A DNA stretch of 64,000 nt, taken from positions 24 to 64,023 of the forward strand of contig JAQUEL010000004.1 in NCBI GenBank assembly GCA_028685295.1, given 5' to 3'. This document shows positions 1 through 63,877 of this stretch, piece after piece; positions within the stretch are counted from its first letter, which is position 1, and the number at the start of each line of letters is the position of its first letter. A program made the translations under genes and the position numbers. The notes under the pieces are model-generated. The model was not told where the DNA came from. It saw only the letters and a program-made list of their open reading frames with translations, and made no database searches. This DNA comes from a bacterium (GTDB lineage: Bacteria > UBP13 > UBA5359).

Positions 1-103
1 CGAGTCAATGTAATTCTTCCTTCTTTCATGCTTTGCATTTTATTTCAAAAAGGGACATTATCTCAAGTGAATTACATAGTGACATTATCACAAGTTAACC
101 ACA
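1..103. repeat. Left arm of a perfect inverted repeat of at least 103 bp (partner at 63878..63980). It may extend beyond the window start.
   Basis: The reverse complement of 1..103 is identical base-for-base to 63878..63980. It lies just upstream of the tRNA-Tyr/tRNA-Thr promoter. Confidence 0.9.
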
Positions 104-9824: not shown

Positions 9825-12800
9825 TTGCTGGATGCCAAAAACTTTGAAATGTTGAAAATTGGCATAGCTTCACCAGATCAGGTAAAGGCCTGGTCACACG
9901 GCGAGGTTAAAAAACCGGAAACCATAAACTATCGTACGCTCAAGCCTGAACGCGACGGGCTCTTTTGCGAGAGGATCTTTGGGCCTATAAAGGATTGGGA
10001 ATGCCATTGCGGTAAATACAAACGCATACGTTTTAAAGGTGTGGTTTGTGATCGCTGTGGTGTGGAAGTAACTAAGGCCAAGGTACGTCGCGAGCGTATG
10101 GGGCATATTGAATTGGCTACGCCGGTATCGCATATCTGGTATTTCAAAGGTGTTCCCAGCCGGATAGCTCTTCTATTGGATATTTCACCGCGTAGCTTGG
10201 AAAAGGTTCTTTATTATGCTTCCTACATAGTGCTTGATGCAGGTGAGAGGACTGATCTAAAGTATAAGCAGATACTTTCCGAAACGGAGTATCGTGAAGC
10301 ACAGGAGCGTTATAAAAACGCCTTTCAAGCCGAGATGGGTGCAGTTGCTATCAAGGCACTCCTGTCTCAGCTGGATTTGGTCACTATGTCCAAAGATCTC
10401 AGAATGGAGTTAAAGGAAGTATCCGGACAAAAACGTATAAAAATTATCAAGCGGCTTGAAGTTGTTGAAGCCTTCCGTAAATCGGGGAACAGGCCGGAGT
10501 GGATGATAATGAATGTTATACCCGTAATCCCGCCGGAAGTTCGTCCTATGGTACAATTGGATGGCGGCCGTTTTGCTACTTCTGATCTTAATGATCTTTA
10601 TCGTAGAGTGATCAATCGCAATAACCGTCTCAAAAAGCTGCTTGAGCTGGGTGCGCCTGAGGTCATAGTCCGCAATGAAAAGCGTATGCTTCAGGAAGCT
10701 GTGGATGGCCTTATTGATAACGGTCGTCGCGGTCGTCCCGTGACCGGTCCTAATAACAGGCCGCTTAAATCGCTTAGCGATATGTTGAAGGGTAAGCAGG
10801 GGCGTTTTCGTCAGAATCTTCTGGGTAAGCGTGTTGATTATTCCGGTCGTTCCGTTATTGTGGTTGGCCCTAATTTGAAGCTCAATCAGTGCGGATTGCC
10901 CAAGGAAATGGCTCTGGAGCTCTTCAAGCCCTTTGTAATGAAGAAATTAGTTGATAACGGCCTGGCGCATAATATTAAGAGTGCCAAGCGAATGGTGGAA
11001 CGTGCCAAGACAGAAGTATGGGATGTTTTGGACAGGGTCATCAGGGAGCATCCTGTCCTGCTTAACCGTGCTCCGACATTGCACCGTCTGGGCATACAGG
11101 CATTTGAGCCTGTAATGGTTGAAGGAAAGGCCATTCAGATACATCCATTGGTCTGTGCCGCCTATAATGCAGATTTTGACGGCGATCAGATGGCTGTGCA
11201 TGTGCCGCTCTCATCGAGTGCACAGGCAGAGGCCAGGTTGTTGATGATGTCCACATCAAATTTGCTTTCACCTGCAGATGGTCGCCCGGTAGTGAGCCCC
11301 ACCCAGGATATTGTTTTGGGATGTCACTATCTGACTATCCGGCGGGAAGGCGTTAAAGGAGAAGGAAAGGCCTTCAGCAGCTTCAATGAAGCTATTCTGG
11401 CTTATGATAACGGAGTAGTGGATCTTCATGCCGTTATCAAGGTCAAACACGATGGGCAATTGTTGGAAACGACGGCAGGCCGCCTGTTATTCAATGAAGC
11501 GTTGCCGCCTGCGCTGCGGTATATCAATGATGTTATGGATAAACGTGAGTTGGGGCAGCTCGTTTCACGCTGCTATAGGTTGCTTGGTCCTACTGAGACC
11601 GTAACTTTGGTAGATAACATGAAGAGTCTCGGCTTCAAATACGGTACCAAGGCCGGTTCGACCATATCCGTTACCGATATCATGGTGCCGGAGGCAAAAA
11701 AACAGATACTGGACTCGGCCGGGCAAGAGGTGGATCAGATAGAGAAGCAGTACCGGCGTGGTTTGATAACCGCGGATGAACGCTATCAAAAGGTTATCGA
11801 TATCTGGACTCAGGCTACGGAAGATGTTACCGATGCTACCATTGAGAATATGGATGAATATAATCCCGTATATATGATGGCTACGTCCGGTGCTCGTGGC
11901 AATATACAGCAGATAAGGCAGTTGGCCGGCATGCGCGGTCTTATGGCCGATCCGTCAGGACGTATTATCGATTTGCCGATTACGGCCAATTTCCGTGAGG
12001 GATTGACGGTTCTCGAATACTTTATTTCTACGCACGGTGCACGTAAGGGCCTGGCTGATACGGCGCTTAGAACAGCCGATTCCGGTTATCTGACCCGACG
12101 GCTTATTGATGTGGCACAGGAGGTCATTATCCGAATTCCCGATTGCGGAACCACATCAGGCATAGTAGTCAAGGATATCAAGGAAGGCCAGGAGATAATA
12201 GAGGCTTTGCGTGACCGTGTGTTGGGCAGAGTATCGCTTGAAACAATTCTTCACCCTGAAACGGGAGATCTTATTCTGGAGAATAATAAAATAATCGATG
12301 AAGATGCTGCTCTGGCCATTGAGAAGGCCGGGATAAAGGCTGTAAAGGTCCGTTCAGCCTTAACTTGCCGTGCGCGGTCCGGATTATGTGCAGCCTGTTA
12401 CGGCCGTGACCTGGCAACCGGAAGCATGGTCGAAATCGGTGAGGCAGTAGGAACTATTGCTGCTCAATCCATCGGCGAACCGGGAACTCAGCTGACTATG
12501 AGGACATTCCATACCGGCGGCGTAGCCTTGAGAGGTGAGGATATTACCCAGGGCCTGCCTCGTGTCGAAGAGTTATTTGAGGCACGTAAGCCTAAAGGAC
12601 TGGCGATTGTCAGTGACATAAACGGTATAGTTGAGATTACCGAAACTAAAGGCGTTCGTAAGATTATTATTAAAGCTGATGATGGTGAAGAGAAGGCCTA
12701 TACTGTTCCTTACGGCGCTCGCCTGGAAGTGGTTGACGGTGATGAAGTCCTGGCTGGAGATCGCTTGACTGAAGGCTCAATTAACCCTCATGACGTACTC

Positions 12801-13439
12801 AATATCAGGGGTATTCAGGAAGTGCAGAGCTATATGGTCCGCGAAGTGCAATCTGTTTATCGTTCTCAGGGAGTTGATATCAACGACAAGCATATTGAGG
12901 TGGTAGTGCGCCAGATGTTGCGGAAGGTGCGTGTTGAGGAGATAGGAAATACCGATTTCCTGCCGGGAGAGCTGGTCGATACCTTTGCCTTCGAAGATGA
13001 GAACGACAGGGTTCTGGCTAAAGGCGGCGAACCTGCCAGCGCTAAGCCTGTTTTGTTGGGCATTACCAAAGCATCGCTGGCTACCGACAGCTTCCTGTCG
13101 GCAGCATCATTCCAGGAGACGACCAGAGTGTTAACGGATGCCTCCACCAAGGGCAAGGGCGATTCTCTGATCGGTCTTAAGGAGAACGTCATAATCGGGA
13201 AGCTGATACCTGCAGGCACCGGAATGTCGTGCTATAAGAACATTGATATCTTTGTACCCGGTGCGCAAAGCTTGGAAGAGAAAATAGAGAAAGAACTTGG
13301 GCAGGATGCCGTTACTGATGAAGCTGTTGAGAAAATGGCTGATCAGGGGCTGGAGCTCGATGTAAAGTTAATTAAAGAACCTGTCAGCGCTGCTGAAGAG
13401 GAAACGGTGCAATCCGTACCGGAACCTGAGAGCGTTTAA
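9825..13439 (+). CDS. rpoC: DNA-directed RNA polymerase subunit beta'
   Basis: TTG start 8 nt after an AGGAGG Shine-Dalgarno. It has a zinc-binding CxxC...CxxC and the NADFDGD catalytic motif. Confidence 0.96.
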
Positions 13440-13482: not shown

Positions 13483-13511
13483 TTGACAGCCTTGAACGCT
13501 CATGATAATAT
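13483..13511 (+). promoter_or_regulatory. Strong candidate promoter for the str operon rpsL-rpsG-fusA-tuf (TTGACA-17-TAATAT)
   Basis: Consensus -35 at 13483-13488, a 17-nt spacer, and TAATAT at 13506-13511. A roughly 270-nt leader follows before rpsL. Confidence 0.5.
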
Positions 13512-13783
13512 AGGTAAGTCCATTTGGCGCTTAAATGATCGAACCTTGCGTCAGGAGCACAATTTCGGTGTTTCCCCGGCATAGCCGGAGGTAGCGATCA
13601 AAACGGGTGGGGAGTTTTTGCAACCGTCCGATAAGGGATATATGATAGATTACATTACCGATGCGTAGCGTCTCAAGCTTGCCGTGATTAAGCATGCTAT
13701 CGAGCCCCTTATGCGTTGCGTGAGGGGCTTAATTTATTTGGCCGTCCTCCAAGAGGAAGACGGATGACGAAGGGAGTCTGGGT

Positions 13784-14821: not shown

Positions 14822-16900
14822 ATGGCGAGAGTTTTTGATCTGAATAAAATACGGAATATTGGAATCGCTGCGCATATAGATGCCGGAAAGACTACGACTA
14901 CCGAGCGTATACTCTTCTATACCGGAAAGGTACATCGTATCGGCGAAGTTCATGAGGGCGCAGCCACTATGGACTGGATGGTTCAGGAGCAAGAGCGTGG
15001 TATTACCATTACCTCTGCAGCTACGTCATGCCTTTGGCAAGGGCATAATATAAATATTATCGATACTCCCGGACACGTTGATTTTACCGTTGAAGTTGAG
15101 CGCTCTCTCAGGGTTCTGGATGGCGTTGTAGCTGTGTTCTGCGCTGTTGGCGGTGTTCAGCCACAATCAGAAACGGTATGGCGCCAGGCTAACCGTTACG
15201 CTGTGCCTCGGGTAGCATTCGTAAATAAGATGGATAGAACGGGTGCGGATTTCGCTAAAGTAGTCGATAGCATACGTAACAGACTGGGAAGCAATGCTTT
15301 GGCAATGCAATTACCTATAGGTGCAGAAGAGTCCTTTAAAGGCATGATAGATCTTGTAACGATGAAGGCGTATATCTACGCTGAAGCGTTGGGAACAGAA
15401 TTCAAGGTTCGGGATGTGCCGGAAGAGATGAGGGCTGATGCTCTGGCAGCCAGGGAGCGTATACTCGAAGTTGCTGCTGAGGCTGATGATCTTCTAATGG
15501 TCAAGTATCTTGAAGGTGAAGAGCTGACCGATGATGAGATCAGGCATGGTGTAAGGCTGGCCACGCTGAGCGCCCAGGTGGTGCCTGTGTTTTGCGGCTC
15601 TTCCTTTAAGAATAAAGGCATTCAGCCGTTGCTGAACGCAGTAATAGATTATCTCCCATCTCCGCTGGATATAGCCGATGTTGAGGGAATGGATCCTCAC
15701 TCCAATGAGGTTATTGTGCGCAAGTCTTCTGATGATGAGCCTTTCAGCGCATTGGCCTTTAAGATTGCTACCGATCCTTATGTGGGTAAATTGACGTTTT
15801 TCAGAATTTATTCCGGTACGCTGGCAAGCGGATCATACGTATATAATTCCGTCAAGGGCAAACGCGAACGTATTGGACGTATTCTCAGAATGCATGCCAA
15901 TAAGCGCGAAGAGATCGATGTTGCTTATGCCGGGGATATATTGGGAGCGGTCGGACTTAAAATTACCTCCACCGGAGATACGCTTTGTGCAGAAAATGCG
16001 CCTGTTATTCTAGAAGCTATCGAGTTTCCCGAGCCGGTTATTTCTGTAGCCATCGAGCCTAAAACGAAGGCTGATCAGGATAAGATGGGCATGGCTCTGG
16101 TAAAGCTGTCAGAGGAAGATCCTACTTTTAGAACCTTTGTGGATGAGGAGACCGGTCAGACTATCATAAGGGGCATGGGTGAATTGCACCTGGAGGTAAT
16201 CATTGACAGGTTGATGCGTGAATTTAATGTGGATGCCAACGTCGGTACTCCGCAGGTCAACTATAAAGAGACCATCACCACTGCAGCTAAGGCAGAGGGA
16301 CGTTTTATTCGTCAGACCGGTGGCCGCGGCCAGTTTGGTCATGTCTGGCTGGAAGTGGAACCCCTTGAGCCCGGTAAAGGCTTTGAATTTGTCAGCGCTA
16401 TCGTTGGCGGCGTTGTTCCAAGGGAATATATACCTGCGGTTGAGGCTGGTGTCAGGGAAGCCTTGGAAAGAGGCGTTCTGGCAGGTTATAATCTGATAGA
16501 TATTAAGGTTACCTTATATGATGGGTCCTTCCATCCGGTGGATTCATCCGAGATGGCCTTTAAAATTGCCGGTTCTATGGCTTTACAGGCGGCTGTTAAG
16601 AAAGCAGGCCCAATTATCAAGGAACCTGTTATGAGAGTTGAGGTTACTACTCCGGAGGATTACCTGGGAGATGTTATGGGTGACCTTAACTCCAGAAGAG
16701 GCCATGTGGAGCAGATGCGGCAGCCGATGAGCGGTGTGCACGAGGTTGTTGCAGTTGTCCCGTTGGCTAAAATGTTTGGCTATGCTACGGATCTGCGTTC
16801 CAGAACGCAGGGCAGAGCTACATATAGCATGGAATTTGCGCACTTTGCGGAGGTTCCGGCAGGCATAGCGCAAGAAATTATTGGCGATATAAAGAGATAA
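14822..16900 (+). CDS. fusA: Elongation factor G (canonical)
   Basis: 692 aa with [17 protein letters not shown] and NKMD motifs, a G' insertion, and the domain IV tip SFHPVDSS. Confidence 0.97.
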
Positions 16901-16972: not shown

Positions 16973-18175
16973 ATGGCAAAGTCAAAGTATGAGAGGACAA
17001 AACCGCACGTCAACGTAGGAACGATTGGTCATGTAGACCATGGTAAGACGACATTGACGGCAGCGATCACCAGGGCGCTAAGTAATACGGGGCAGGCTTC
17101 TTTCAGAAGCTACGATGAGATTGACAATGCGCCGGAAGAGAAGGCTAGAGGAATAACTATTGCCACGACACACGTGGAATATGAGACAGAGACGAAGCAC
17201 TATGCACACGTAGACTGTCCGGGGCACGCCGACTATATCAAGAACATGATCACTGGAGCGGCGCAAATGGATGGAGCCATTCTGGTGGTATCTGCAGCAG
17301 ACGGGCCTATGCCGCAGACCAGGGAGCACATATTGTTGGCACGTCAGGTAGGGGTGCCGTATATTGTAGTTTTCATGAATAAGGCGGATATGGTAGATGA
17401 TCCGGAGCTGTTGGAGCTGGTAGAGATAGAGATAAGGGATCTGCTGAACAGCTATGAGTTTCCCGGAGATGATACGCCGATAATAGCGGGTTCTGCGTTA
17501 AAGGCTCTGGAGTGCGGATGTGGTAAGAATGAGTGCGAGTGGTGTGGACCTATATGGAAGTTATTGTCAGCACTGGACAGCTATATACCTGCTCCTGAGA
17601 GAGATGTAGACAAGCCGTTTTTGATGCCTATAGAGGATGTTTTCAGCATCACAGGGCGAGGGACGGTAGTAACGGGAAGAGTAGAGCGCGGCAAGGTAAG
17701 AGTAGGAGAAGAGGTAGAGATAGTAGGTTTGGCCCCGCAGAGCCGCAAGACGGTAGCAACGGGAGTGGAGATGTTCCGTAAGTTACTGGATGAAGGCATA
17801 GCAGGAGACAACATAGGAGTATTGCTGCGTGGAGTGGATAAGAATGATGTAGAGCGTGGTCAGGTATTGGCCAAGCCCGGCTCGATCAAGCCGTATACAA
17901 AGTTCAAAGCCAACGTATATATTCTATCCAAGGAGGAAGGCGGCAGGCATACTCCGTTCTTTAACGGTTATCGTCCGCAGTTCTATTTCAGGACAACGGA
18001 CGTAACGGGAGTGGCGACACTGCCGGAGGGCGTAGAGATGGTAATGCCTGGCGACAACGTGGCGTTGTCGGCAGAGCTGATAACGCCGATAGCGATGGAA
18101 GAGGGGCTGAGGTTCGCTATACGAGAGGGCGGACATACGGTCGGTGCCGGAGTTATCAGCGCTATTGATGAGTAA
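16973..18175 (+). CDS. tuf: Elongation factor Tu, copy 2 (str operon copy)
   Basis: 400 aa, identical to copy 1 except the last residue (E in place of G). The DNA has only a few substitutions. Confidence 0.97.
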
Positions 18176-55349: not shown

Positions 55350-56427
55350 TGCTTATAATGCAGTTGCTTTTCTTAAAAAGGAAGCAGTAATGCCCATATA
55401 TTTGCTGGCCGGTCCCGGAGATTTTCCCTATGAGGGACTGCTGCGCATGATTGCATCTCGTGTCATCGGCCCGGATACGGGGCTCAGGGATATGGATAAT
55501 CTGAATCTGAGCGTATCCGGGTTGGCCGATGCTTTGGACGAAGCTTCTACGCTGTCACTCTTTGGAGGTGGGCAGGTGCTGTTATTGCGCTCACCGCAAG
55601 CTATCAGTGATGCTGATATCAAGCTTTTGGAGCAATATTTAGAAAGCCCCGATCCGGCTACTGTTATAGTCATTCTCTTCACTTATGATAGGGAAGATGA
55701 GCAAGGCGGGCGCATCCCTGCGCCCAAAGCATCTCTGGCCCGCCTGGTGGAAAAGAGAGGGGTTTACATTAATCTTACCTTTGCCAGCGGTAAGAAATAC
55801 GGCCATGATGCACAGGAAACAGAGCGCCTGCTGCGGCTGATAGGTGAACGCGGACGACGTGCCGGCAAGCGTTTCAGCCGGTCTGCTGCTCAAATGCTTA
55901 TTGATATGGCCGGAGGTAGCGCAGGACTGCTCTTCTCTGAAGCCGACAAGGCGATAGCCTATGTTGGTGCTGAAGAGGAGATAAAACCAGCGGATATCGT
56001 CGCTATCGGCTGCCATAATGCTGAAGCCGATATCTTTGAAATGATAGATGGCCTGGGACAAGGAAAACGAGCGCAGGCATTGAAGATCTTTTCACGCCTG
56101 TGGGAGATGCTGCCCATGCCGGACAGCGGCAAGGCTATCTATATCGTTACCATGCTGGCCAGGCATTTTCGCTTTCTGTTGCAAGGAGCAGCCTTGAAAA
56201 GGGAAGAGAAGGGCAAGTTTTTGCCTGAGGATAAAAAAATATCGCTGGCGGCTCAGCATCCCTTTGTCCAACGTAAAATAGCTTTGCAGGCTGCGCATTA
56301 CGGCCTGCGACGAGCCGCACAGGCGTTGGTAAAGTTTCATCAACTGGATAGAGATCTAAAATCCGGTGCAGTTATCGATGAACGTTCTTCTATTGAACTT
56401 CTTCTGGTAAGTCTTCAGTCTGAGTAG
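55339..56427 (+). CDS. holA: DNA polymerase III subunit delta
   Basis: About 362 aa from ATG 55339. The conserved comEC-holA arrangement is present, with a clamp-loader delta-like N-terminal domain. Confidence 0.8.
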   Translation: MKIDAYNAVAFLKKEAVMPIYLLAGPGDFPYEGLLRMIASRVIGPDTGLRDMDNLNLSVSGLADALDEASTLSLFGGGQVLLLRSPQAISDADIKLLEQYLESPDPATVIVILFTYDREDEQGGRIPAPKASLARLVEKRGVYINLTFASGKKYGHDAQETERLLRLIGERGRRAGKRFSRSAAQMLIDMAGGSAGLLFSEADKAIAYVGAEEEIKPADIVAIGCHNAEADIFEMIDGLGQGKRAQALKIFSRLWEMLPMPDSGKAIYIVTMLARHFRFLLQGAALKREEKGKFLPEDKKISLAAQHPFVQRKIALQAAHYGLRRAAQALVKFHQLDRDLKSGAVIDERSSIELLLVSLQSE

Positions 56428-57296
56428 CAGCAGTTATCCTGGGTGTTAACCCCGGGAGGGCAGGCCCGGTAAGCCAGTGGAGAGCATCCGTAAGTCTTGC
56501 GAAAGGCCTTGGAGAAGACCAGTTGATCGCCATATCCCACCGACACAGCTACTTCATTTACAGTTAGTTCGGTGCTTTTAAGCAGATTAGCGGCTCTGCG
56601 CATGCGTACGTTCAGCAGGTATGACATGGGGGGGAGCCCCGTGCCTTCCTTGAAGATACGACAGAAATAACTGCGGTTCAGCCCGGCCTGAGCGGCAATA
56701 TCAGCGATTCTCAAGCGCTTATAGTAGTTGGCCTCAATAAAGTTTCTAGCCCAATTCACGTAAAGGCGTTCTTCGCCCTTTTCGTTCTGCTCTGCGGGTG
56801 TCTGTGACGCTTCATCCATTAGCGATGAAATGAAGAGATTGAGCATGCCCTGTAAATGGAGAATGTCGCTCTGTTTGATAGCTATGGCCCCCTGCATCTG
56901 CAGCAGAAGCTGAAGTGTTCGGCTCTTTGTATCAAAATTAACGATAGGTTTTTCTTTTGACAATCCTGCAACTGCCAGATAATCAGCTGCCATAATACCG
57001 CCAAAGCCAAGCCAGGCATATGTCCAGGGATCGGCAGCGTCAGCCTCATAATACGTCAAGACATCCGGGTATATTAGAAAGCCTTGTCCCTGGTGAAGTT
57101 CCCATATCTGATCACCAAGGCGGAATATCCCTTTGCCGTTTATGATCAGATGGATAAGATAATTGCCCCTGACTGCAGGACCAAAGGAATGCGACGGAGT
57201 ACATGCCTCCATACCGCAAAAGAGAAAATGAAGATCAATACTTCTGTATATACGGCGCTTACCCGGTGTGGTGCCGGTGCTTTTAATAGTATGCAT
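56415..57296 (-). CDS. AraC-family transcriptional regulator (cupin sensor plus C-terminal HTH), divergent from melA
   Basis: N-terminal cupin (HSFGPAVRGNYLIHLI) and C-terminal AraC HTH (IADIAAQAGLNRSYFCRIFKEGTG). Confidence 0.85.
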   Translation of the reverse strand: MHTIKSTGTTPGKRRIYRSIDLHFLFCGMEACTPSHSFGPAVRGNYLIHLIINGKGIFRLGDQIWELHQGQGFLIYPDVLTYYEADAADPWTYAWLGFGGIMAADYLAVAGLSKEKPIVNFDTKSRTLQLLLQMQGAIAIKQSDILHLQGMLNLFISSLMDEASQTPAEQNEKGEERLYVNWARNFIEANYYKRLRIADIAAQAGLNRSYFCRIFKEGTGLPPMSYLLNVRMRRAANLLKSTELTVNEVAVSVGYGDQLVFSKAFRKTYGCSPLAYRACPPGVNTQDNCCYSD

Positions 57297-57422
57297 AAGT
57301 CACATTTTACCATAAAGAGTCAACATAATGGAATATTTTATAGATATGCAATCTGATATAATACAATCACAGCATTAATAACTGCGCATAAAATGTGCAA
57401 ATTAAGAGAGAGGAAGATAGAT

Positions 57423-58763
57423 ATGCCGAAAAAAATAGCCTTTATAGGAGCCGGAAGTTTTGGATTTACCAGAAGGCTGGTCAATGATATATTGACCTAT
57501 CCGGCTTTATCCGATGCCGTCATTACCCTTATGGATATAGATGCCGAACGACTGTCTTTTATCAAGGCGGCGGTAGATAAGATAGTGGCGGCCGGCAATT
57601 ATTCTGCTCGGGTGGAGGCAACCCTGGACAGGGGAGAAGCCCTTACCGGAGCCGATGGTGTAATCTGCACCATCTTGCAGGGCGGGGTAGAAGTCTTCCG
57701 TAAAGACGTGGAGATCCCTAAAGAATATGGCGTTGATATCAACGTAGGGGATACCAGAGGGCCGGCCGGCATTTTTAGAGCGTTACGTACTATCCCGGTG
57801 ATGCTGGATATCTGCAGGGATATAGAACGCTATTGCCCGCAAGCTGTCTTTCTTAATTACACCAATCCTATGGCTATGCTCTGCCGGGCTATGCAGGAGA
57901 AATTCCCGGAATTGACTATCAGCGGACTCTGCCACAGTGTACAGGGAACAGCTGAAATGCTTGCCAAATGGATAGGCGCACCTATGGAAGAGGTAACCTT
58001 TCTTTGTGCCGGTATAAATCACCAGGCCTGGTATCTTGATTACAAGTGGAACGGTCGGGATGCTTATCCTCTGCTCAGGGAGGCGATCAAAAAACCTGAG
58101 ATATACAAGGAGGAACAGGTTCGTAACGAGATGTTCATCCATCTGGGCTACTATGTTACCGAATCCAGTGGGCATAACTCCGAATACAATGCCTGGTTTA
58201 GGAAGCGTCCGGATCTGATAGAGAAATATTGCACACACGGCACGGGATGGAATCCCGGAATTTATGCTTATATCCGAGATCATTACCTGGAAACAGCGAA
58301 CACCTGGCGGAATAATATCAAAGAAGAACTGGCCAAGCCGATTGAGCTGCAGAGAGGAAATGAGTATGCCTCCAGTATCTTCAATGCCGTCATAGGCGAT
58401 GGTACCCCATATGAGTTTAATGGCAACGTGCGCAATTTCGGCCTGATAGATAATCTACCTGAAGGCTGTTGTGTGGAGGTGCCGGTCCTGGCTTCACACC
58501 GTGGGCTGGATCCTTTACATGTTGGGAAATTGCCGCCACAACTGGCCCTGATGAACAATATCAGCGCCAGATGCGAGGAATTAGCGGTAGAAGGAAGCCT
58601 GGCAGGAGACAAGGAGATGATCTACCAGGCGATATATTTTGACCCGCTGACCTCCGCCGTGCTCAGCCTGGCTGAGATCAGGGAGATGGTGGATAAGATG
58701 TTTGCAGCCAATGCTGATTGGCTGACGCAGTTCAAGCCGGCAAAAGTTTCGATAAGGATCTGA
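57423..58763 (+). CDS. melA: GH4-family NAD+/Mn2+-dependent alpha-galactosidase (MelA-like)
   Basis: [34 protein letters not shown] and [20 protein letters not shown] motifs align with MelA. Confidence 0.88.
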
Positions 58764-58901
58764 TGAAACATTTACCTGCAGGCAAGGATAAAGTATAATT
58801 ATGTCCTTGCCTGCAGGCAGATCGAGTTTTCTGATATTTGCATTGACATAAGCTTATGCCGATGATAAAATAATCAAGCTTCCTTTGAAATGGGAGCGTG
58901 T

Positions 58902-58977
<76 letters not shown>

Positions 58978-58996
58978 TTTTTTTCATAGTGGTATT

Positions 58997-59036
58997 GCGG
59001 GTTTCGAGGTTTTCCTGAAACCCGCTTATTTTTTAT
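58997..59036 (+). terminator. Intrinsic terminator after tRNA-Phe (GCGGGTTTC-loop-GAAACCCGC + TTATTTTTTAT)
   Basis: A 9-bp perfect stem followed by a T-run. Confidence 0.6.
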
Positions 59037-59388
59037 CTTTTCCATTTACAACAGAACTTACAACAAAATGGGGCAGTAATTTATCGGAAAGACTGGCTAC
59101 AGCACGGGCTTTCATATCGGGGAAGATATGCGTGTAGATGTTGGCGGTAGTGCCTATATCGGCATGGCCTAGATAATCGCTGACCTGCTTTATGTCCTGC
59201 ACGTCCTCATATAAGAGTGTGGCGCAGGTGTGGCAAAAAGCATGCAGACGGGGCTTTTCCGGCAGCCGTATATCATCCTCTGTCCAGCTTTTTTGTTGTA
59301 AGCGGCAACGATTGCCTTGAAGCGCCGGCGGATATTTTTTGTCTGGAGGATTTACTATATGGATAGGGGTATTATCAGGGTTAAATTT
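59029..59388 (-). pseudogene. Tyrosine recombinase (phage-type integrase) 3' remnant: catalytic C-terminal region only, no start codon
   Basis: The minus-strand frame encodes ...RLHAFCHTCATLLYEDVQDIKQVSDYLGHADIGTTANIYTHI... (box II with the catalytic Tyr). The HxxR Arg is replaced by Cys. There is no in-frame Met upstream and the frame runs into the tRNA terminator. Confidence 0.7.
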
Positions 59389-59450
59389 TTACCCCTTAAG
59401 GGATTGACAAAAGAACAAGTGTTTGCTATCCTGCCATGGGAGGTATCGAT

Positions 59451-59675
59451 ATGGCAAAAATAAACGTTTCTTTACCTAATGAAGTTATCGTTTGTCTTGA
59501 TGAAGATGCTCGCCGGCATGGTCTGACCAGGTCAGAGTATATTCGCCGGTCTGTAGAGCTGTATGCGCGTTACCTGCATTTAGAGGAGAAGGTGGAAAAG
59601 AGAATACAGACTTTGAAAAATGCTGTCACAAAGCAGGACACTTTGGCCGAGCGTCTGGCAGAATATGTTGCCTGA
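59451..59675 (+). CDS. Ribbon-helix-helix (CopG/VapB-like) antitoxin
   Basis: MAKINVSLPNEVIVCLDEDARRHGLTRSEYIRRSVELY. TTGACA-17-TATCCT and a GGGAGG Shine-Dalgarno lie upstream. The 3' end overlaps the downstream gene. Confidence 0.7.
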   Translation: MAKINVSLPNEVIVCLDEDARRHGLTRSEYIRRSVELYARYLHLEEKVEKRIQTLKNAVTKQDTLAERLAEYVA

Positions 59676-59691
59676 AGGTGATGAGGAGGTA

Positions 59692-60195
59692 ATGCACGTG
59701 AGCAAAGACGGGTTGTTGCGCTATATTCTGTATGAGAATGCCGCGAAGGCGGATGGGGAATATTCTTCAGGCTATATTTATCTCATTAAGCCGGTATATA
59801 TACTGGATCCCAGCGTAGTTTCCCGCTGGTTTATCCGTGACGAGGTCTCCGGAGCTGCTCTCAAGGTAAGAGAGGATTATGTCAGAGGCCATATCTCTTT
59901 GATTGTGCCGGATTGCATTCTTTTTCATCTGGCTGATCTTCTGCAAAAGCACGGCGGACTTACCGGAATGGATATAGCCGCTGCTTTGAAGACTATGTAT
60001 GATATGCATATAATTATGCCTCTACGTGCCCAGAGTGCTTGCCGGGCAGTGGAGATGGCTGTAGCAGATGGTCTGGAGATGAGTAAGGCCGTTTATCTGG
60101 CCGAAGCAGAATTGAGCGGAGCCAGGCTCCTGACCAATGATAAAGAGATAGCCTCCAAATATTATGCTGCCATACATATTAGCAATTATCAGTGA
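59692..60195 (+). CDS. Putative PIN-domain (VapC-like) toxin with an N-terminal extension
   Basis: YILDPSVV...(acidic residues)...LLTNDKEI pattern. It overlaps the RHH gene in another frame. The start is ATG 59692 or GTG 59698. Confidence 0.45.
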   Translation: MHVSKDGLLRYILYENAAKADGEYSSGYIYLIKPVYILDPSVVSRWFIRDEVSGAALKVREDYVRGHISLIVPDCILFHLADLLQKHGGLTGMDIAAALKTMYDMHIIMPLRAQSACRAVEMAVADGLEMSKAVYLAEAELSGARLLTNDKEIASKYYAAIHISNYQ

Positions 60196-60611
60196 AGTGA
60201 ATAGCTTATATATGCACCTCTCATAAATCAAGAATGCAGATGCAGAAGTTCAGAAACATATTGGACTCTGAACTGCTTTTTTCACCTTGGGCCGGACGAT
60301 TAAGTTCGCGTCTTTGCGCTCTGGCTTCAAATATTGGACAGCTTCATATACCTGGTCTTTGTAACATACCTTCATTCCAACTCTTGGCCCAAGCAAGACT
60401 TCAATTTCTTTTCTGGCGGGGACAAGTGGATAGCCTTGCGTATCTATCTTGAACAACCTGCCTTTGAAGGAGAAGCAGCTTGAAGCATCTGTTTTTCGTT
60501 TCTTTTTAATACAGAGAATGGTGTCTATATCAATGTTTGACCTGAGAGGGACGAAGATGGATTCTCCTTTGGCGGGCAGAGCCGCAGGGCGGCAGGTATG
60601 GCCGAAGAAAT

Positions 60612-60723
60612 AAAAAAGCCCACAAAAGTGAGCTGTCCGGCCGGTCCACCACGCCCGGCGTCTTCCTGGACTGGCCCGCGTTAGCGGGACTCAGTGTGTG
60701 AGAAGGTGTTCCTCACCTCGGAC
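60612..60723 (-). ncRNA. Candidate small structured RNA of about 112 nt with its own promoter and intrinsic terminator. Family unknown.
   Basis: On the minus strand, TTTACT (60758-60753), a 17-nt spacer and TATAAT (60735-60730) place the +1 near 60723. The terminator is GCUCAC-UUUU-GUGGGC plus U6 (60633-60612). The transcript is GC-rich with a 5'/3' closing helix (UGUCCG/CGGACA) and internal hairpins (CCCGC-UAAC-GCGGG). No coding potential. Confidence 0.4.
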
Positions 60724-60916
60724 ACTTTAATTATATACTCGTTTCGGGGCAAAGTAAATATTCGAGGAGTGAGCATTAGGGGATGTCCCTTCGTCCCCCG
60801 CTGGACCTCTACAATTCATTGACAGGCTATATGGCCGATGCTAGAATACGCCTGTGTATTACCTTACATAATCGATGCGTAGATTGCCGCTGTCGATATA
60901 TGAGAGAGGAAATGAT

Positions 60917-61732
60917 ATGCGCTTACAAATTCTTGGAACTGCCGCCGGGGAGGCATGGCCGGCGATATTTTGCGGATGCGATACTTGCAAGCGTGCGCAA
61001 GCTGCAGGCGGCAAGGATCTGCGGAGCCGGTCATCTCTGCAAATAAACGATAAATATAAGATAGACCTTCCGCCGGATACATACCACCACATAGTTACTC
61101 AAGGTTTGAACCTCTCCAGACTCTCTCACCTTTTTATCACTCATTCTCATTCAGACCATTTTGACCTTGCTTTAATAAATATGATGAACCCGCCATTTGC
61201 ACATAATCTTGAGCATGCCCCCGTCAAAATTCTAGGAAATAATACGGTGATAGAAAAGATAAACGCCGCGTTTAATGAAAGTGATCTTTCCTTTAATGCG
61301 ACGGCTATAGAACCGTTTGTACCTGTTGCAGCCGGGGAGCTTGCTTTCACGCCCATACTTGCCGCTCATATGACGCATGAGGATTGCTTAAACTACGTGA
61401 TAAGCTCCGAGGAAGCTACCGTCCTTTATGCATCCGATACGGGTGCCTACCCGGAGAGAACGATAAATTATCTTTGTAAATTGAAGTTCGATCTGCTTGT
61501 TATTGAGTGTACCTCCGGCACGCTGAATATTCCACCCACGGTACATATGAATTTTGAAACTGTGCTTGATCTTGTAAACAGGCTAAAGTCCGCAGGAGCA
61601 GTCTCTTCCCGTACAAGAGTAGTAATTACACACTTTTCCCATAACATGGGATTGCTGCATAAAGAGCTGGAAGCAATTGCCAAGCCTCACAATATAGAGG
61701 TAGCCTACGATGGCATTGTTTTGGATATCTGA
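60917..61732 (+). CDS. Metallo-beta-lactamase-fold hydrolase, PhnP-like
   Basis: ILGTAAGEAWP...CGCDTC and THSHSDH motifs. ATG at 60917 after a GAGAGAGGAAATG Shine-Dalgarno. Confidence 0.75.
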   Translation: MRLQILGTAAGEAWPAIFCGCDTCKRAQAAGGKDLRSRSSLQINDKYKIDLPPDTYHHIVTQGLNLSRLSHLFITHSHSDHFDLALINMMNPPFAHNLEHAPVKILGNNTVIEKINAAFNESDLSFNATAIEPFVPVAAGELAFTPILAAHMTHEDCLNYVISSEEATVLYASDTGAYPERTINYLCKLKFDLLVIECTSGTLNIPPTVHMNFETVLDLVNRLKSAGAVSSRTRVVITHFSHNMGLLHKELEAIAKPHNIEVAYDGIVLDI

Positions 61733-61773
61733 AATTATTCACGCAAAAAACGCGCTCCGTACGGAGCAGCGCT

Positions 61774-62817
61774 CTACGATAAGACTACCGGCCTTCCCTT
61801 CTCAGCCGATTCATAAATATAGCGGCATAGCTCAATAGATTTACGGCCTTCCAAACCATTTACCAGCGGTTCGCGGTCCTGAGTTATGGCATCGCACATA
61901 TCCTGTATCTGTGCCTTATGCCAAGTTATGGGAAAGGCCATGGGATCGCTGGCACCGGTGCCGGTAACCTCTTCCACATCGCCAGGTTCATCATTCTCTG
62001 TAGCATTCATAATATTCCAAGAGGATAGGCTGCCCTGTTCCAGCGTGATAGTTCCTCTGGTACCGTGCAGTTCCAGACGCTCTGGTAAACCCGGATAAAG
62101 ACAAGTAGAAGCCTCGATAATGCCCATAGCACCATTCCTGAATTTAAGATTGATTACAGCCAGGTTCTCAATTTCAATATTTCGATGCACAGGCATTATG
62201 GCGGTACGAGCATAGACCTCGGCCACCGGGCCAAAAACCCAAAGCAACAAATCGATGGAATGCAAAGCTTGATTAATGAGAACTCCGCCGCCCTCCGTGG
62301 ATAGTTTGCCGCGCCATTCATCCTTATCAAAATATGCCTGCGGGCGATACCACTTAACATGGACCCCGCCATAAAGCAACTGCCCAAGCCCACCGGCATG
62401 GCAATATTCCCTAGCACGACGTACCGCCTTCTTGAATCTGTTTTGAAAGATCACCGCCAACTTTACTCCATTGGCCTGACAAGCCTCGATGAGCGCATCG
62501 CACTTCTCCAGCCTGATATCCATGGGCTTCTCCACTATAACATGTTTGCCCTGCCGCGCAGCCTCTATCCCCATATCGGCATGGCAAAAAGGCGCCGTAG
62601 TGATATCCACTATATCGATGTCATCCCGCCCCAACACCTCACCGTAATCGCAAGTCCAAGGAACGCCATATCTATCTGCAAATTGCCTGGCCCGTTCTTC
62701 TGTCCTCGAATAAACCAACTTCAGATCGGTCTCATCCAGTTGCACAATAGAGTCAGCATGCGCTGCAGATACCATACCGGCCCCTACCAGAGCAACGCCG
62801 TATTTTCGCTTATACAA
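61774..62817 (-). CDS. Gfo/Idh/MocA-family NAD(P)-dependent oxidoreductase
   Basis: N-terminal Rossmann GVALVGAGMVSAAHA, an EKP motif and a C-terminal alpha/beta domain. Confidence 0.8.
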   Translation of the reverse strand: MYKRKYGVALVGAGMVSAAHADSIVQLDETDLKLVYSRTEERARQFADRYGVPWTCDYGEVLGRDDIDIVDITTAPFCHADMGIEAARQGKHVIVEKPMDIRLEKCDALIEACQANGVKLAVIFQNRFKKAVRRAREYCHAGGLGQLLYGGVHVKWYRPQAYFDKDEWRGKLSTEGGGVLINQALHSIDLLLWVFGPVAEVYARTAIMPVHRNIEIENLAVINLKFRNGAMGIIEASTCLYPGLPERLELHGTRGTITLEQGSLSSWNIMNATENDEPGDVEEVTGTGASDPMAFPITWHKAQIQDMCDAITQDREPLVNGLEGRKSIELCRYIYESAEKGRPVVLS

Positions 62818-63072
62818 TATACCTGCCTCCGTACTTTTTTATTTATCGTAGCATAGATGCAAGGCTTTTCACGCTCTCTTTTCTTCTGCTGCTAAGGGAC
62901 TGTCTTGCTTCTGCTTAAGCTTATCATATAATAAAATATCACCTTTTGGCTAGTATACGGAATATCCGGAATTGATGGCAATTCCATATACAGGCATAAA
63001 GCATGATCAAAATGTTTTATTTATCTGAAAGTATGGTAAATATTTTTAGACATATCGATCAGGAGCGATATC

Positions 63073-63756
63073 ATGCTGATAAAGGGCATTTTTCTCGTTA
63101 TATGTTTTTGTTTAATCCCACTTTCAACCGCAGCCGCAAAAGCTGAAACATATTCCATTGTCGCTGTACCTGCTATGCAAGCCAAAGCAAAGAAGGCGCC
63201 GCTTTATATAACGGATGCACATAGGTTGGGTGAACTACAATCAGATTATGATTCTATTAGTGTAGAAGCAGTCAGAATTTATCAATATGGAAAATCAAAA
63301 CCTTTTTATAAAGGCATAACGCTTATCTTTACAGATTCAATAGTAACGTTAAATATTGACGAAGCAAAAGCCTTATCCGCAACCATACCAGATCTGATAA
63401 AAATAGGTACTGAATGGGCAGAGATAGAAAAGGAATCCGCAGAGGCAGATATATTCGTGGGAGGCCCTGATTATATATTTAATGTAGGATTTTATCAGCA
63501 AGGTAATAAAAGGATTATTTATATGTCCAGCCTCGAAGCCACAGTAATGCTTAAATCGCTAGATGATGTTTTAAATTTCAAAGATTTAGTTGATCAAGGA
63601 TTAATATGGCTGTCACGCAATAAAAGTGTCAACCTATCGCAAAGCAATAAAAACGATTTGATAACATTAGTTACCAAGAAAGGCTGTCATAATAAAAACG
63701 GGTTCCGGCAAAACACCAGAACCCGCATAAATACTGGAGCCGACGAGCGGGATTGA
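63073..63756 (+). CDS. Hypothetical secreted protein in a low-GC patch. The 3' end overlaps tRNA-Thr on the opposite strand.
   Basis: Signal peptide (LVICFCLIPLSTAAAKA), no known domain, local GC about 38% against about 49% elsewhere. Confidence 0.4.
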   Translation: MLIKGIFLVICFCLIPLSTAAAKAETYSIVAVPAMQAKAKKAPLYITDAHRLGELQSDYDSISVEAVRIYQYGKSKPFYKGITLIFTDSIVTLNIDEAKALSATIPDLIKIGTEWAEIEKESAEADIFVGGPDYIFNVGFYQQGNKRIIYMSSLEATVMLKSLDDVLNFKDLVDQGLIWLSRNKSVNLSQSNKNDLITLVTKKGCHNKNGFRQNTRTRINTGADERD

Positions 63757-63810
63757 ACCGCTGGCCTACGCATTACGAGTGCGTCGCTCTACCAGCTGAG
63801 CTACGTCGGC
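63735..63810 (-). tRNA. tRNA-Thr(CGT)
   Basis: Minus-strand acceptor stem GCCGACG pairs with CGTCGGC. The anticodon loop is cuCGUaa. It has a GGTTCAATCCC T-arm and a terminal TCCA. Confidence 0.8.
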
Positions 63811-63830
63811 GAATCGTCTTAGGCTATCAG

Positions 63831-63860
63831 ATTTTATCATTACAGAGCCATCAGTGTCAA
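63831..63860 (-). promoter_or_regulatory. Promoter for tRNA-Thr(CGT) on the minus strand (TTGACA-18-TAAAAT with a TG extended -10)
   Basis: The reverse complement reads TTGACActgatggctctgtaatgaTAAAAT. It lies between the right arm of the inverted repeat and the tRNA. Confidence 0.45.
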
Positions 63861-63877
63861 TTCCCGGAGTCATATAG

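What the first reader, a model, noticed from the sequence alone, without database searches (positions are those of the whole stretch)
60590..60780. Orphan promoter-to-terminator unit encoding a roughly 112-nt GC-rich structured RNA in an ORF-free islet next to tRNA-Phe
On the minus strand, a near-consensus promoter (TTTACT-17-TATAAT) is followed about 7 nt later by a transcript that ends at a canonical intrinsic terminator (GCUCAC-UUUU-GUGGGC plus U6). The predicted RNA is 5'-GUGUCCGAGGUGAGGAACACCUUCUCACACACUGAGUCCCGCUAACGCGGGCCAGUCCAGGAAGACGCCGGGCGUGGUGGACCGGCCGGACAGCUCAC-3'. It has no coding potential, is locally far more GC-rich than its surroundings, and shows a closing helix between its 5' and 3' ends plus several internal hairpins. 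It sits in a roughly 640-bp stretch with only implausible overlapping ORFs, between a degraded integrase/toxin-antitoxin islet and a PhnP-like gene. The nearest downstream minus-strand ORF is about 140 nt beyond the terminator, so a cis-acting riboswitch is unlikely. I could not match it by eye to SRP RNA, 6S, tmRNA or RNase P, although the AGGAAG segment and terminal helix loosely resemble a small SRP RNA.
Basis: seen in the sequence. Interest (0 to 1): 0.65.

Follow-up and report, generated by a model that had tools for sequence, protein, structure and literature searches.

The report
Divergent skipping-rope small RNA gene
The promoter-to-terminator unit is real and encodes a divergent copy of the "skipping-rope" RNA, a phage-associated small RNA of unknown function; in this copy two loops that appear to pair with each other have swapped sequences, which is what hid it from routine annotation.

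Summary
On the minus strand, TTTACT-17-TATAAT (60758..60730) is followed by about 115 nt that end at an intrinsic terminator (60634..60617 plus U6). Such promoter-to-terminator units are rare here: 3 in the window against 0.07 in shuffles, and one of the three is a tRNA gene.

The RNA is not an unknown class. Rfam missed it at gathering threshold and in a 601-nt scan. A scan of only 105 nt gave RF02924 skipping-rope RNA: full length, 30.7 bits (gathering 36.7), E=6e-6. A model I built from phage members alone ranks 60632..60726(-) as the best hit in the whole window (E=0.003).

All four helices and the junction nucleotides match. The two hairpin loops do not match in sequence, but they keep a 4-bp loop-loop pairing in the family's register with reversed polarity.

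In phage contigs, 25 of 81 loci carry a PBECR3 nuclease gene 42-70 nt upstream of the RNA. Other loci have PemK-like, DUF3800 or Panacea genes. None of these is in this window.

The copy abuts an IS junction in a segment that differs by an inversion from related contigs. No second reversed-loop member was found.

Verdict: a stand-alone, divergent variant of a known orphan RNA class. Its function is inferred, not shown.

The parts
60730..60758 (-). Sigma-70-type promoter: -35 TTTACT (60758..60753), 17-nt spacer, -10 TATAAT (60735..60730). The start site is predicted at about 60725..60723.
   Evidence: 10 of 12 matches; sequence. One of only 3 promoter-to-terminator units in the window, against 0.07 in shuffles.
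60632..60726 (-). Core of the RNA: full-length match to skipping-rope RNA (RF02924), a four-helix junction.
   Evidence: 30.7 bits, E=6.1e-6, model positions 1-80 of 80; own model R1 gives 18.6 bits, E=0.0027, the top hit in the whole window with filters off.
60634..60724 (-). P1 closing helix: 60724..60719 (UGUCCG) pairs with 60639..60634 (CGGACA).
   Evidence: pair probability 0.95; CM alignments.
60698..60716 (-). P2 hairpin: GUGAG / CUCAC, with 9-nt loop GAACACCUU (60711..60703). Loop bases CACC (60708..60705) are the proposed kissing segment.
   Evidence: these four bases are Watson-Crick complementary to GGUG in the P4 loop, at the family's register.
60665..60696 (-). P3. A C-G closing pair and ACUG/CAGU match the family. 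It has an extra GC-rich extension (CCCGC-UAAC-GCGGG) and a 4-nt 3' bulge CCAG.
   Evidence: The extension is modelled as an 18-nt insertion relative to the phage members.
60660..60664 (-). P3-P4 junction AAGAC. The family has AGAU, so this copy has one extra A and U changed to C.
   Evidence: Alignments, compared.
60640..60659 (-). P4 hairpin: GCCGG / CCGGC, with 10-nt loop GCGUGGUGGA (60654..60645). Loop bases GGUG (60650..60647) are the proposed partner of the P2 loop.
60611..60634 (-). Intrinsic terminator: AGCUCAC-UUUU-GUGGGCU followed by U6.
   Evidence: pair probability 1.0. The family is described as followed by such terminators (PMC5737381). T4+ follows P1 in 33 of 46 distinct phage contexts.
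60268..60569 (-). Context: an internal 302-nt fragment of an IS transposase gene (rve-type DDE). Its junction at 60569/60570 lies 47 nt after the terminator stem.
   Evidence: 98% identical to L001 7019-7320, which lies inside the full 448-aa gene. (rve domain).
60819..60847 (+). Context: divergent promoter (TTGACA-17-TAGAAT, with TG) for the PhnP-like MBL-fold gene. It sits back to back with the RNA promoter.
   Evidence: Homologues are about 14 aa shorter than the ORF, so the true start is probably at 60917.

Best explanation
IDENTITY (largely shown). Window 60611..60758(-) is a stand-alone gene for a divergent member of the skipping-rope RNA class (Rfam RF02924; Weinberg et al. 2017). A near-consensus sigma-70 promoter drives a transcript of about 115 nt. 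The transcript folds into a four-helix junction (P1 closing P2, P3 and P4) and ends at an intrinsic terminator directly after P1.

Compared with phage members:
- P2 and P4 have the same stem lengths (5 bp each), and P2 has the same loop length (9 nt). The P4 loop is 10 nt here against 8-9 in the family.
- The junction nucleotides are kept (G-AG-G, A-CAC, G-AGAY-G, C).
- P3 is longer, and a separate terminator hairpin follows P1.
- The sequences of the P2 and P4 loops are exchanged in polarity. The family has GGY in the P2 loop pairing with RCC in the P4 loop. Here CACC in the P2 loop pairs with GGUG in the P4 loop, at the same loop positions.

This keeps a loop-loop (kissing) contact that a covariance model cannot score, and it explains the sub-threshold Rfam score.

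MECHANISM (inferred, low confidence).
- The kissing contact would lock the junction into a compact cloverleaf. Its linker lengths are 2, 1 and 0 nt at three of the junctions, and 4 to 5 nt at the fourth. This layout recalls a tRNA.
- In phage contigs the RNA lies right next to toxin-like nuclease genes (PBECR3, PemK/MazF-like, DUF3800) or SocA/Panacea antitoxin-domain genes. I therefore propose that it acts in trans by binding such a protein, as an RNA antitoxin, decoy or cofactor.
- No partner gene is present here. This copy is either an orphan kept for cross-protection or a still-intact remnant of a lost mobile element.
- It borders an IS junction in a segment that differs by an inversion from related contigs. 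The DNA beyond the flanking IS looks like prophage remnants.
For: Homology:
- RF02924, minus strand, full length, 30.7 bits, E=6.1e-6.
- model R1, built only from 39 phage sequences, was run with filters off on all 64 kb and both strands. Its best hit is 60632..60726(-), E=0.0027.
- the phage sequences used are bona fide members (45-77 bits).

Structure:
- an independent MFE fold gives the same helices.
- across phage members all helices covary. The three loop-loop pairs are never unpaired (GC 39; GC 38 and GU 1; UA 22, UG 11, CG 6).
- in the window RNA the longest Watson-Crick run between the two loops is 4 bp, and it sits exactly at the family register. Shuffled loops reach this at that register in 0.6% of trials.

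Gene signals:
- promoter and terminator are on the same strand as the CM hit. Such units are rare by chance.
- PMC5737381: the class is followed by Rho-independent terminators, is rarely in 5' UTRs, and is associated with nearby protein genes linked to DUF3800.

Partner genes in phage loci:
- PBECR3 lies 42-70 nt upstream on the same strand in 25 of 81 loci.
- PemK-like genes occur in L059, L103, L068 and L115, DUF3800 in L089, and Panacea in 11 loci.

Context:
- IS junction and inversion.
- prophage-like genes lie beyond the IS.
Against: - The score is below Rfam's gathering threshold (30.7 against 36.7). Routine scans saw nothing.
- The two loop sequences, which are among the most conserved parts of the family, do not match.
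- Some 4-bp complementarity between two such loops at any register arises in 21% of shuffles.
- No second reversed-loop member was found in viral, genome or metagenome scans. The variant therefore rests on one sequence, identical in six metagenome contigs, and covariation within the variant cannot be tested.
- The core fold is not more stable than shuffles (z=-1.1).
- No PBECR3, PemK, DUF3800 or Panacea gene is in the window (tblastn best E=0.25). The neighbours were also scanned.
- The mechanism rests only on gene neighbourhood. Some phage loci already encode a Panacea antitoxin-domain protein beside the PemK-like toxin, so the RNA need not be the antitoxin.
- The Rfam tRNA model does not score canonical members.
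- Expression is untested.
Confidence: 0.78

Rival explanations
1. It is a true skipping-rope homologue but a dead relic. On this view it is the leftover of a mobile element whose partner gene was lost through IS-mediated rearrangement, and it no longer does anything useful, whether or not it is transcribed.
For: - No partner gene is nearby.
- An IS junction lies 47 nt after the terminator, and the surroundings are scrambled.
- The score is much lower than that of the phage members (30.7 against 45-77 bits).
- P1 is short, at 5-6 bp.
Against: - All four helices, the junction nucleotides, a 10-of-12 promoter and a clean terminator are intact.
- Keeping the loop-loop complementarity while reversing its polarity needs coordinated changes in both loops. 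That points to selection on the fold at least until recently.
Confidence: 0.25
2. The resemblance is due to chance. On this view the unit is an unrelated, lineage-specific small RNA (or a fortuitous promoter plus terminator around GC-rich DNA) that merely shares a four-way-junction shape with skipping-rope RNA.
For: - The score is below the gathering threshold and the loops do not match.
- The core fold has z=-1.1.
- Model R1 also gives weak hits to tRNAs, so it partly rewards any cloverleaf.
- There are no homologues of the exact sequence anywhere.
Against: - Two models agree on the same 95 nt and the same strand, with E=6e-6 locally and E=0.003 window-wide.
- The next-best window hits have E of 0.4 or more.
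- The match covers the family-specific junction nucleotides and the exact stem and loop lengths, not just the shape.
- A terminator follows P1 as in the family, and loop-loop pairing falls at the family register (p about 0.006).
Confidence: 0.12
3. It is a stranded riboswitch or 5' leader. On this view the RNA once controlled a downstream gene through its terminator, and that gene was removed by the IS-associated rearrangement at 60569/60570.
For: - The architecture is aptamer-like: P1 closes a multi-helix junction and a terminator follows directly.
- A rearrangement junction lies 47 nt after the terminator.
- The promoter sits back to back with that of the neighbouring gene.
Against: - There is no competing antiterminator. 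The best alternative fold is 7.7 kcal/mol worse, and the terminator has pair probability 1.0.
- The family it matches is reported to be only rarely in potential 5' UTRs (PMC5737381).
- In phage loci the RNA lies downstream of genes, not upstream.
- No riboswitch family matches.
Confidence: 0.04

Closest known systems
Skipping-rope RNA motif (Rfam RF02924; Weinberg et al. 2017, NAR 45:10811, PMC5737381)
   Same: - Four-helix junction with 5-bp P2 and P4 and a 9-nt P2 loop.
- Junction nucleotides G-AG-G, R-CAC, a 3' bulge on P3, and G-AGAY-G.
- P4 runs straight into P1 with no linker.
- A Rho-independent terminator follows directly.
- Not in a 5' UTR.
- Setting close to mobile-element remnants (IS copies and prophage-like genes).
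- Complementary P2 and P4 loops.
   Different: - The score is below Rfam's gathering threshold.
- The polarity of the loop-loop pairing is reversed (CACC:GGUG instead of GGY:RCC).
- P3 carries an extra GC-rich extension.
- The P3-P4 junction has one extra A, and U is changed to C.
- P1 is only 5-6 bp.
- The RNA has its own near-consensus promoter.
- No toxin-like, DUF3800 or Panacea gene is nearby.
- The host is an uncultivated, deep-branching, Bacillota-like bacterium.
[quoted passage not shown]
   Same: They are orphan structured RNAs that end in terminators, are not in 5' UTRs, and are linked to particular protein genes on mobile elements. Their function is unknown.
   Different: Their structures are different. 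None of these models matched the window RNA at E up to 10.
Type III toxin-antitoxin RNA antitoxins (ToxI/ToxN type; from established knowledge)
   Same: In phage loci a small structured RNA sits directly beside a small ribonuclease-like toxin gene, with no obvious protein antitoxin (PBECR3 loci).
   Different: - ToxI-type antitoxins are tandem repeats upstream of the toxin gene and are processed by the toxin.
- Skipping-rope is usually a single unit downstream of the gene.
- Some loci already encode a Panacea antitoxin-domain protein.
- Nothing has been tested experimentally.
- There is no toxin gene in this window.
tRNA and tRNA-like structures
   Same: - Cloverleaf layout, with linkers of 2 nt (P1-P2), 1 nt (P2-P3) and 0 nt (P4-P1).
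- A 5-bp last arm.
- Pairing between the first and last hairpin loops, as in the D-loop/T-loop elbow.
- tRNAs are the next-best hits of my model in the window.
   Different: - There is no 7-nt anticodon loop, no T-loop sequence and no CCA end.
- ARAGORN and the Rfam tRNA model do not recognise it.
- The likeness is in layout only.

Membership tests
Skipping-rope RNA (RF02924) | Four-helix junction: P1 closes three hairpins, with P2 and P4 of 5 bp and loops of about 9 nt | tested here: met
   CM alignments. An independent MFE fold gives the same helices.
Skipping-rope RNA (RF02924) | Conserved junction nucleotides: G-AG-G after P1, R-CAC entering P3, a 4-5-nt 3' bulge on P3, G-AGAU-G before P4, and C closing P1 | tested here: met
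   One search compared. GAGG, A-CAC, bulge CCAG, G-(A)AGAC-G and C are all present. There is one inserted A and one U-to-C change.
Skipping-rope RNA (RF02924) | Conserved loop sequences (P2 loop AAAnGGynn; P4 loop ...RCCGC) | tested here: not met
   The P2 loop is GAACACCUU and the P4 loop is GCGUGGUGGA.
Skipping-rope RNA (RF02924) | Complementarity between the P2 loop and the P4 loop. I derived this feature here from phage members; the published figure is not held. | tested here: met
   Family: the three pairs are never unpaired, and the third pair covaries. Window: 4 Watson-Crick pairs at the same loop positions with reversed polarity, reached by 0.6% of shuffles at that register.
Skipping-rope RNA (RF02924) | Rho-independent terminator directly 3' of the motif | tested here: met
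   PMC5737381. 33 of 46 phage contexts.
Skipping-rope RNA (RF02924) | Score at or above Rfam's gathering threshold (36.7 bits) | tested here: not met
   30.7 bits. It is absent from the gathering-threshold scan.
Skipping-rope RNA (RF02924) | A nearby gene of the associated kinds (in phage loci: PBECR3, PemK-like, DUF3800 or SocA/Panacea) | tested here: not met
   tblastn of the phage partner proteins against the window: best E=0.25, and not near the RNA. The original partner may have been lost at the IS junction.
Small SRP RNA | Match to the bacterial small SRP covariance model (helix 8 motif) | tested here: not met
   There is no SRP hit at E up to 10, and none at gathering threshold.
Terminator-type riboswitch or leader | Mutually exclusive antiterminator and terminator folds | tested here: not met
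   The terminator has pair probability 1.0. The forced alternative fold is 7.7 kcal/mol less stable.
Terminator-type riboswitch or leader | A regulated ORF directly downstream on the same strand | tested here: inconclusive
   The downstream DNA is an IS fragment that starts 47 nt after the terminator stem. The ancestral neighbour is unknown.
Type III antitoxin RNA (ToxI-like) | Tandem direct repeats next to the toxin gene | tested here: not met
   The RNA is single-copy in the window, and there is no toxin gene of the phage-locus kinds.
tRNA | Recognition by tRNA detectors (ARAGORN, RF00005) | tested here: not met
   (six tRNAs, none at this site). (no RF00005 hit on this RNA or on a canonical member).

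The most novel reading that the evidence does not exclude
Skipping-rope RNAs may be tRNA-shaped partner RNAs (antitoxins, decoys or cofactors) of small ribonuclease toxins carried by phages. Their fold would depend on a D-loop/T-loop-like kiss between the P2 and P4 loops. On this reading, the window copy is a natural double-sided compensatory 'experiment' that supports that tertiary contact, because both loops are reversed and pairing is preserved. It could also represent a free-standing RNA that a bacterium keeps for protection against incoming toxins.
Probability: 0.2. Interest if true: 0.7.

Novelty: new variant of a known kind. Interest (0 to 1): 0.45.

Why it matters
The skipping-rope class has been an orphan since 2017. 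It is well conserved and clearly structured, yet no function is known, and the self-cleavage test was negative.

This copy adds three things:
- It shows that routine Rfam annotation misses divergent members. The hit appeared only when 105 nt were scanned alone.
- Its reversed loop pair supports a loop-loop tertiary contact, because the complementarity is kept at the same positions although every base differs.
- Collecting phage members for comparison showed a very regular arrangement: PBECR3 lies 42-70 nt upstream on the same strand in 25 of 81 loci, and other loci carry PemK-like, DUF3800 or Panacea genes. That gives a concrete, testable idea of function as a partner RNA of ribonuclease toxins.

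For this genome alone the practical consequence is small. It is one more small-RNA gene, stranded by IS activity.

Tried and rejected
Searches that found nothing useful:
- Rfam at gathering threshold on the whole window, and at E up to 10 on 601 nt. Only a terminator-driven isrB hit appeared, at E=0.83.
- blastn (distant mode) against plasmids and phages: only terminator-like matches.
- Exact and degenerate pattern scans:
  - Genome contigs: 18 hits, all chance hits in high-GC genomes.
  - Metagenome contigs: only the same contig plus chance hits.
  - Five 18-mers tiling the RNA against viral contigs, plus one gapped pattern: chance hits only.
  - A pattern for reversed-loop variants: 17 hits, none with the helices.
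- Paralogue search in the window and in L001: none.

Synteny through the PhnP-like gene failed. The nearest homologues (59-71% identity) sit in unrelated contexts and lack the RNA.

Ideas considered and dropped:
- Stranded riboswitch: no antiterminator, and the family is not 5'-UTR-associated.
- Small ORF starting at GUG 60652, preceded by AGGAAG: it runs through the terminator and across the IS junction, so I treat it as an artefact.
- Link to the RHH/PIN pair: the adjacency may be secondary, because the segment is inverted relative to related contigs.
- A weak R1 hit in the related contigs (L139 2747-2802): Rfam does not confirm it.
- PADLOC gave nothing for the phage partner proteins or for the window neighbours.

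The supplementary text of Weinberg et al., which names the associated protein domain, is not held.
Full report
THE OBSERVATION

The minus strand carries TTTACT-17-TATAAT at 60758..60730. It ends at a 7-bp hairpin (60634..60617, loop UUUU) followed by six U.

Taken singly, promoter-like and terminator-like sites are no more frequent around here than in shuffles. I therefore counted strong promoters (at least 10 of 12) followed within 50-250 nt by a strict terminator on the same strand. There are three in the 64-kb window, against 0.07 per block shuffle. One of the other two is the tRNA-Thr gene at 63735..63810. So this signature marks real small-RNA genes in this genome.

The region is also in the top 1% of 100-nt windows for G+C (0.61 against a mean of 0.479). 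It has no credible ORF.

Two details need correcting:
- The fold of the 92-nt core is not unusually stable (z=-1.1). The z of -2.3 for the full RNA comes mostly from the terminator.
- Part of the 'ORF-free' stretch, 60268..60569, is an internal fragment of an IS transposase gene. A full copy of that gene starts just before the window's end.

HOW THE IDENTITY WAS FOUND

Standard routes failed:
- Rfam at gathering threshold found only tRNAs and an L10 leader.
- A permissive scan of 601 nt found only a terminator-driven isrB hit.
- blastn against plasmids and phages found only terminator look-alikes.
- Pattern scans of genome, metagenome and viral collections returned chance hits and the organism's own contig.

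The organism is an unclassified 'MAG: bacterium'. Its EF-G is about 70% identical to those of Moorella, Calderihabitans and similar Bacillota, and only one relative reaches 90%. A lack of close homologues therefore says little.

I then re-ran Rfam on only 60628..60732, where the speed filters are laxer. That gave RF02924, skipping-rope RNA, on the minus strand at 60632..60726. It covers model positions 1-80 of 80, with 30.7 bits (gathering threshold 36.7) and E=6.1e-6.

AN INDEPENDENT CHECK

- From the Rfam consensus I wrote a pattern and scanned viral contigs. It found 81 loci.
- Twenty of these loci were scanned with Rfam at gathering threshold. Nineteen carry skipping-rope RNA, at 45-77 bits. 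The twentieth, L090, is a chance match of the pattern.
- I aligned 39 distinct phage sequences and built a covariance model from them, without the window sequence.
- I searched the whole window on both strands with filters off. The best hit is again 60632..60726(-), with 18.6 bits and E=0.0027. The next hits (E 0.4-0.8) are two tRNAs.
- The helices in these alignments are the same ones the energy model predicts on its own.

ANATOMY COMPARED WITH THE FAMILY

A typical phage member reads:
P1 - AG - [GUCGG AAAUGGUUC CCGAC] - A - [CACUCU GAAA AGAGU, bulge ACCU, G] - AGAU - [GAUGG AUACACCGC CCAUC] - C - P1'.

The window RNA reads:
UGUCCG - AG - [GUGAG GAACACCUU CUCAC] - A - [CACUG ... CAGU, bulge CCAG, G] - AAGAC - [GCCGG GCGUGGUGGA CCGGC] - CGGACA.

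The features that match:
- The stem lengths of P2 and P4.
- The 9-nt P2 loop.
- The one-base and two-base linkers.
- The bulge on P3.
- The junction bases.
- The absence of any linker between P4 and P1.

The differences:
- P3 has an 18-nt GC-rich extension.
- The P3-P4 junction has one extra A.
- P1 is shorter.
- A separate terminator hairpin follows P1. Some phage members have this too, for example L046, L069 and L091. Others extend P1 and run straight into a U-tract.

THE LOOPS

The largest mismatch is in the two 9-10-nt loops, which are highly conserved in the family.

Across the phage members, P2-loop positions 5-7 (GGY) can pair with P4-loop positions 7-5 (RCC). In 39 sequences the three pairs are never unpaired:
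- first pair: GC in 39;
- second pair: GC in 38 and GU in 1;
- third pair: UA 22, UG 11, CG 6.
One subgroup extends the pairing to five pairs (GGCAC:GUGCC). The pattern I used fixed the GG, but it did not fix the CC or the third pair.

In the window RNA the P2 loop carries CACC at positions 4-7 and the P4 loop carries GGUG at positions 5-8. This is the longest Watson-Crick run possible between the two loops. It falls at the family's register with the polarity reversed.

Shuffled versions of the two loops reach four Watson-Crick pairs at that register in 0.6% of trials, and at any register in 21%.

I read this as a retained loop-loop contact. A covariance model scores loops by sequence and cannot see this pairing, which accounts for the sub-threshold score. 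Both loops also resemble the reverse complements of the canonical loops. I note that without explaining it.

The evidence has limits. It rests on one sequence, and a targeted scan for other reversed-loop variants in viral contigs found none.

WHAT THE FAMILY IS KNOWN TO BE

Weinberg et al. [quoted passage not shown] They report that:
- it is rarely in 5' UTRs, so it is an unlikely riboswitch;
- it showed no self-cleavage;
- it is associated with protein genes nearby in either orientation, with a possible link to DUF3800.

No function was proposed. I found no later functional study in the held library. The supplement that names the protein domain is not held.

PARTNER GENES IN THE PHAGE LOCI

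I clustered the ORFs around the 81 phage loci.
- The commonest neighbour is a protein of about 131 aa that matches PBECR3, a Barnase/EndoU/colicin-E5-D/RelE-like nuclease (E=4e-23).
- It is present in 25 loci, always on the same strand and 42-70 nt upstream of the RNA.
- Where the upstream region could be read, it shows a terminator and a promoter-like stretch rather than a partner protein gene.
- Other loci have PemK/MazF-like toxins (L059 and L103, overlapping the RNA's start by 9 nt; also L068 and L115).
- L089 has a DUF3800 protein 26 nt upstream.
- SocA/Panacea antitoxin-domain proteins occur in 11 loci.
- IscB-like or TnpB-like genes are also present. They look like secondary insertions.

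This gives the best available functional lead: the RNA works with small ribonuclease toxins of mobile elements. Whether it neutralises them, mimics their substrate or helps them is open. Some loci encode a Panacea antitoxin-domain protein as well, which argues against a simple two-part toxin-antitoxin scheme.

The cloverleaf layout and the loop-loop kiss recall a tRNA, and tRNAs are the runner-up hits of my model. The Rfam tRNA model does not score a canonical member. The likeness is one of layout only, and I hold the decoy idea at low confidence.

THE LOCAL SETTING

No PBECR3, PemK-like, DUF3800 or Panacea gene occurs in the window. The nearby genes are:
- a VapB-like RHH protein;
- a weak PIN-domain protein;
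- an integrase fragment;
- a PhnP-like MBL-fold hydrolase transcribed divergently from its own promoter.

Contigs from related bacteria were reached through the PIN-like protein. They match window 56345..60226 at 88-90% nucleotide identity. They then continue directly, in reverse orientation, with window 63862..63694, which is the tRNA-Thr region.

So 60227..63877 is inverted in this genome relative to those contigs. Inverted IS sequences flank the segment: the fragment at 60268..60569 on the minus strand, and a full copy from about 63878 on the plus strand. I think the inversion most likely arose in this lineage by recombination between the IS copies.

Three inferences follow:
- The RNA's closeness to the toxin-antitoxin pair may be a by-product of this rearrangement.
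- If so, its earlier neighbour, beyond an IS copy, was the region at L001 7500 onward. That region encodes an NlpC/P60 protein matching phage tail lysins, a weak SSB-like OB-fold protein and a cI-like repressor, which looks like prophage remnants.
- The IS junction lies only 47 nt after the terminator stem, so a partner gene could have been lost there.

VERDICT

It is a divergent, stand-alone member of the skipping-rope class rather than a new kind of RNA.
- Identity: confidence about 0.8.
- Still functional rather than a relic: uncertain. Intact signals and the compensated loops favour function, or at least recent function.
- Mechanism (partner RNA of toxin nucleases with a tRNA-like fold): inferred from neighbourhoods in phage contigs, and unproven.

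Noticed in passing
window 60227..63877; loci L139-L145; L001 6020-7500: This segment (IS fragment, the RNA, the PhnP-like gene, a GFO/IDH oxidoreductase, a 227-aa protein and tRNA-Thr) is inverted relative to related contigs, where the PIN gene abuts tRNA-Thr. In those contigs tRNA-Thr is followed by an intact integrase and prophage-like genes. Inverted IS copies flank the segment here.
   Followed up: partly
window 1..103: The first 103 nt of the window are the reverse complement of the left end of the same IS (L001 6020-6122). The genome therefore holds at least two full copies plus the 302-nt fragment.
   Followed up: no
window 13483..13730 (+): This is the third promoter-to-terminator unit in the window. 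It lies just after the large ORF 9825..13439 and has a 13-bp GC-rich hairpin (GAGCCCC...GGGGCUU). It could be that gene's terminator, a leader, or another small RNA.
   Followed up: no
window 60875..61732 (+): Homologues of the PhnP-like MBL-fold gene are about 14 aa shorter, so the true start is probably ATG 60917, which is preceded by GAGAGGAAA. Precomputed Pfam hits call it Anti-Pycsar Apyc1-like, but my own Pfam scan returned only Lactamase_B_2. Its closest homologues are 59-71% identical, and several more distant ones are labelled Armatimonadota.
   Followed up: partly
L072 54-240 (-); L053, L060 and L070: Two different skipping-rope subtypes occur in tandem in L072 (P2/P4 loops AAAUGGUUC/AUACACCGC, then AACAGGCAG/AGUGCCAC). 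In L053, L060 and L070 a truncated first copy is fused to a second-type copy.
   Followed up: partly
L103 3452-3670 (-): An RT-2 RNA (RF03077, 140 bits), a reverse-transcriptase-associated RNA, lies about 3 kb from a skipping-rope RNA on the same phage contig.
   Followed up: no
L112 1843-3390 and similar genes in L062, L066, L107, L114 and L116; L046 and L071: Genes with RRXRR plus HNH domains (Pfam-confirmed for L112 only; IscB-like, 467-515 aa) lie about 210 nt upstream of the skipping-rope RNA on the same strand. A 370-aa ORF that I judged TnpB-like by eye (not scanned) lies upstream of the RNA in L046 and L071. These may be IS200/605-type insertions at this spot.
   Followed up: no
L041, L045, L050, L072, L113 and others, 3' of the RNA: In many phage members P1 extends to about 14 bp (GCAUAAUUAUUUUG...CAAAAUAAUUAUGC) and runs straight into a U-tract. 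The whole cloverleaf's closing stem therefore seems to double as the terminator hairpin.
   Followed up: partly
window 60703..60711 and 60645..60654 (-): Both loops of the window RNA resemble the reverse complements of the canonical loops (GAACACCUU against GAACCAUUU; GCGUGGUGGA against GCGGUGUAU). It is as if each hairpin loop had been inverted between its stem arms. This could also be coincidence that follows from the reversed pairing.
   Followed up: partly
window 411..1613 and 16973..18175 (+): There are two 400-aa ORFs of equal length. By size and position (one follows the EF-G gene at 14822..16900) they are probably two EF-Tu copies. They were not scanned. The first lies next to a tRNA-Tyr and tRNA-Thr pair.
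   Followed up: no
L001 7450-7530: A long, nearly perfect inverted repeat (GCTATGCTGTGGTAGG...CCTACCGC...CAGCATAGG) lies just after the full IS transposase gene. It may be the IS end or a terminator.
   Followed up: no
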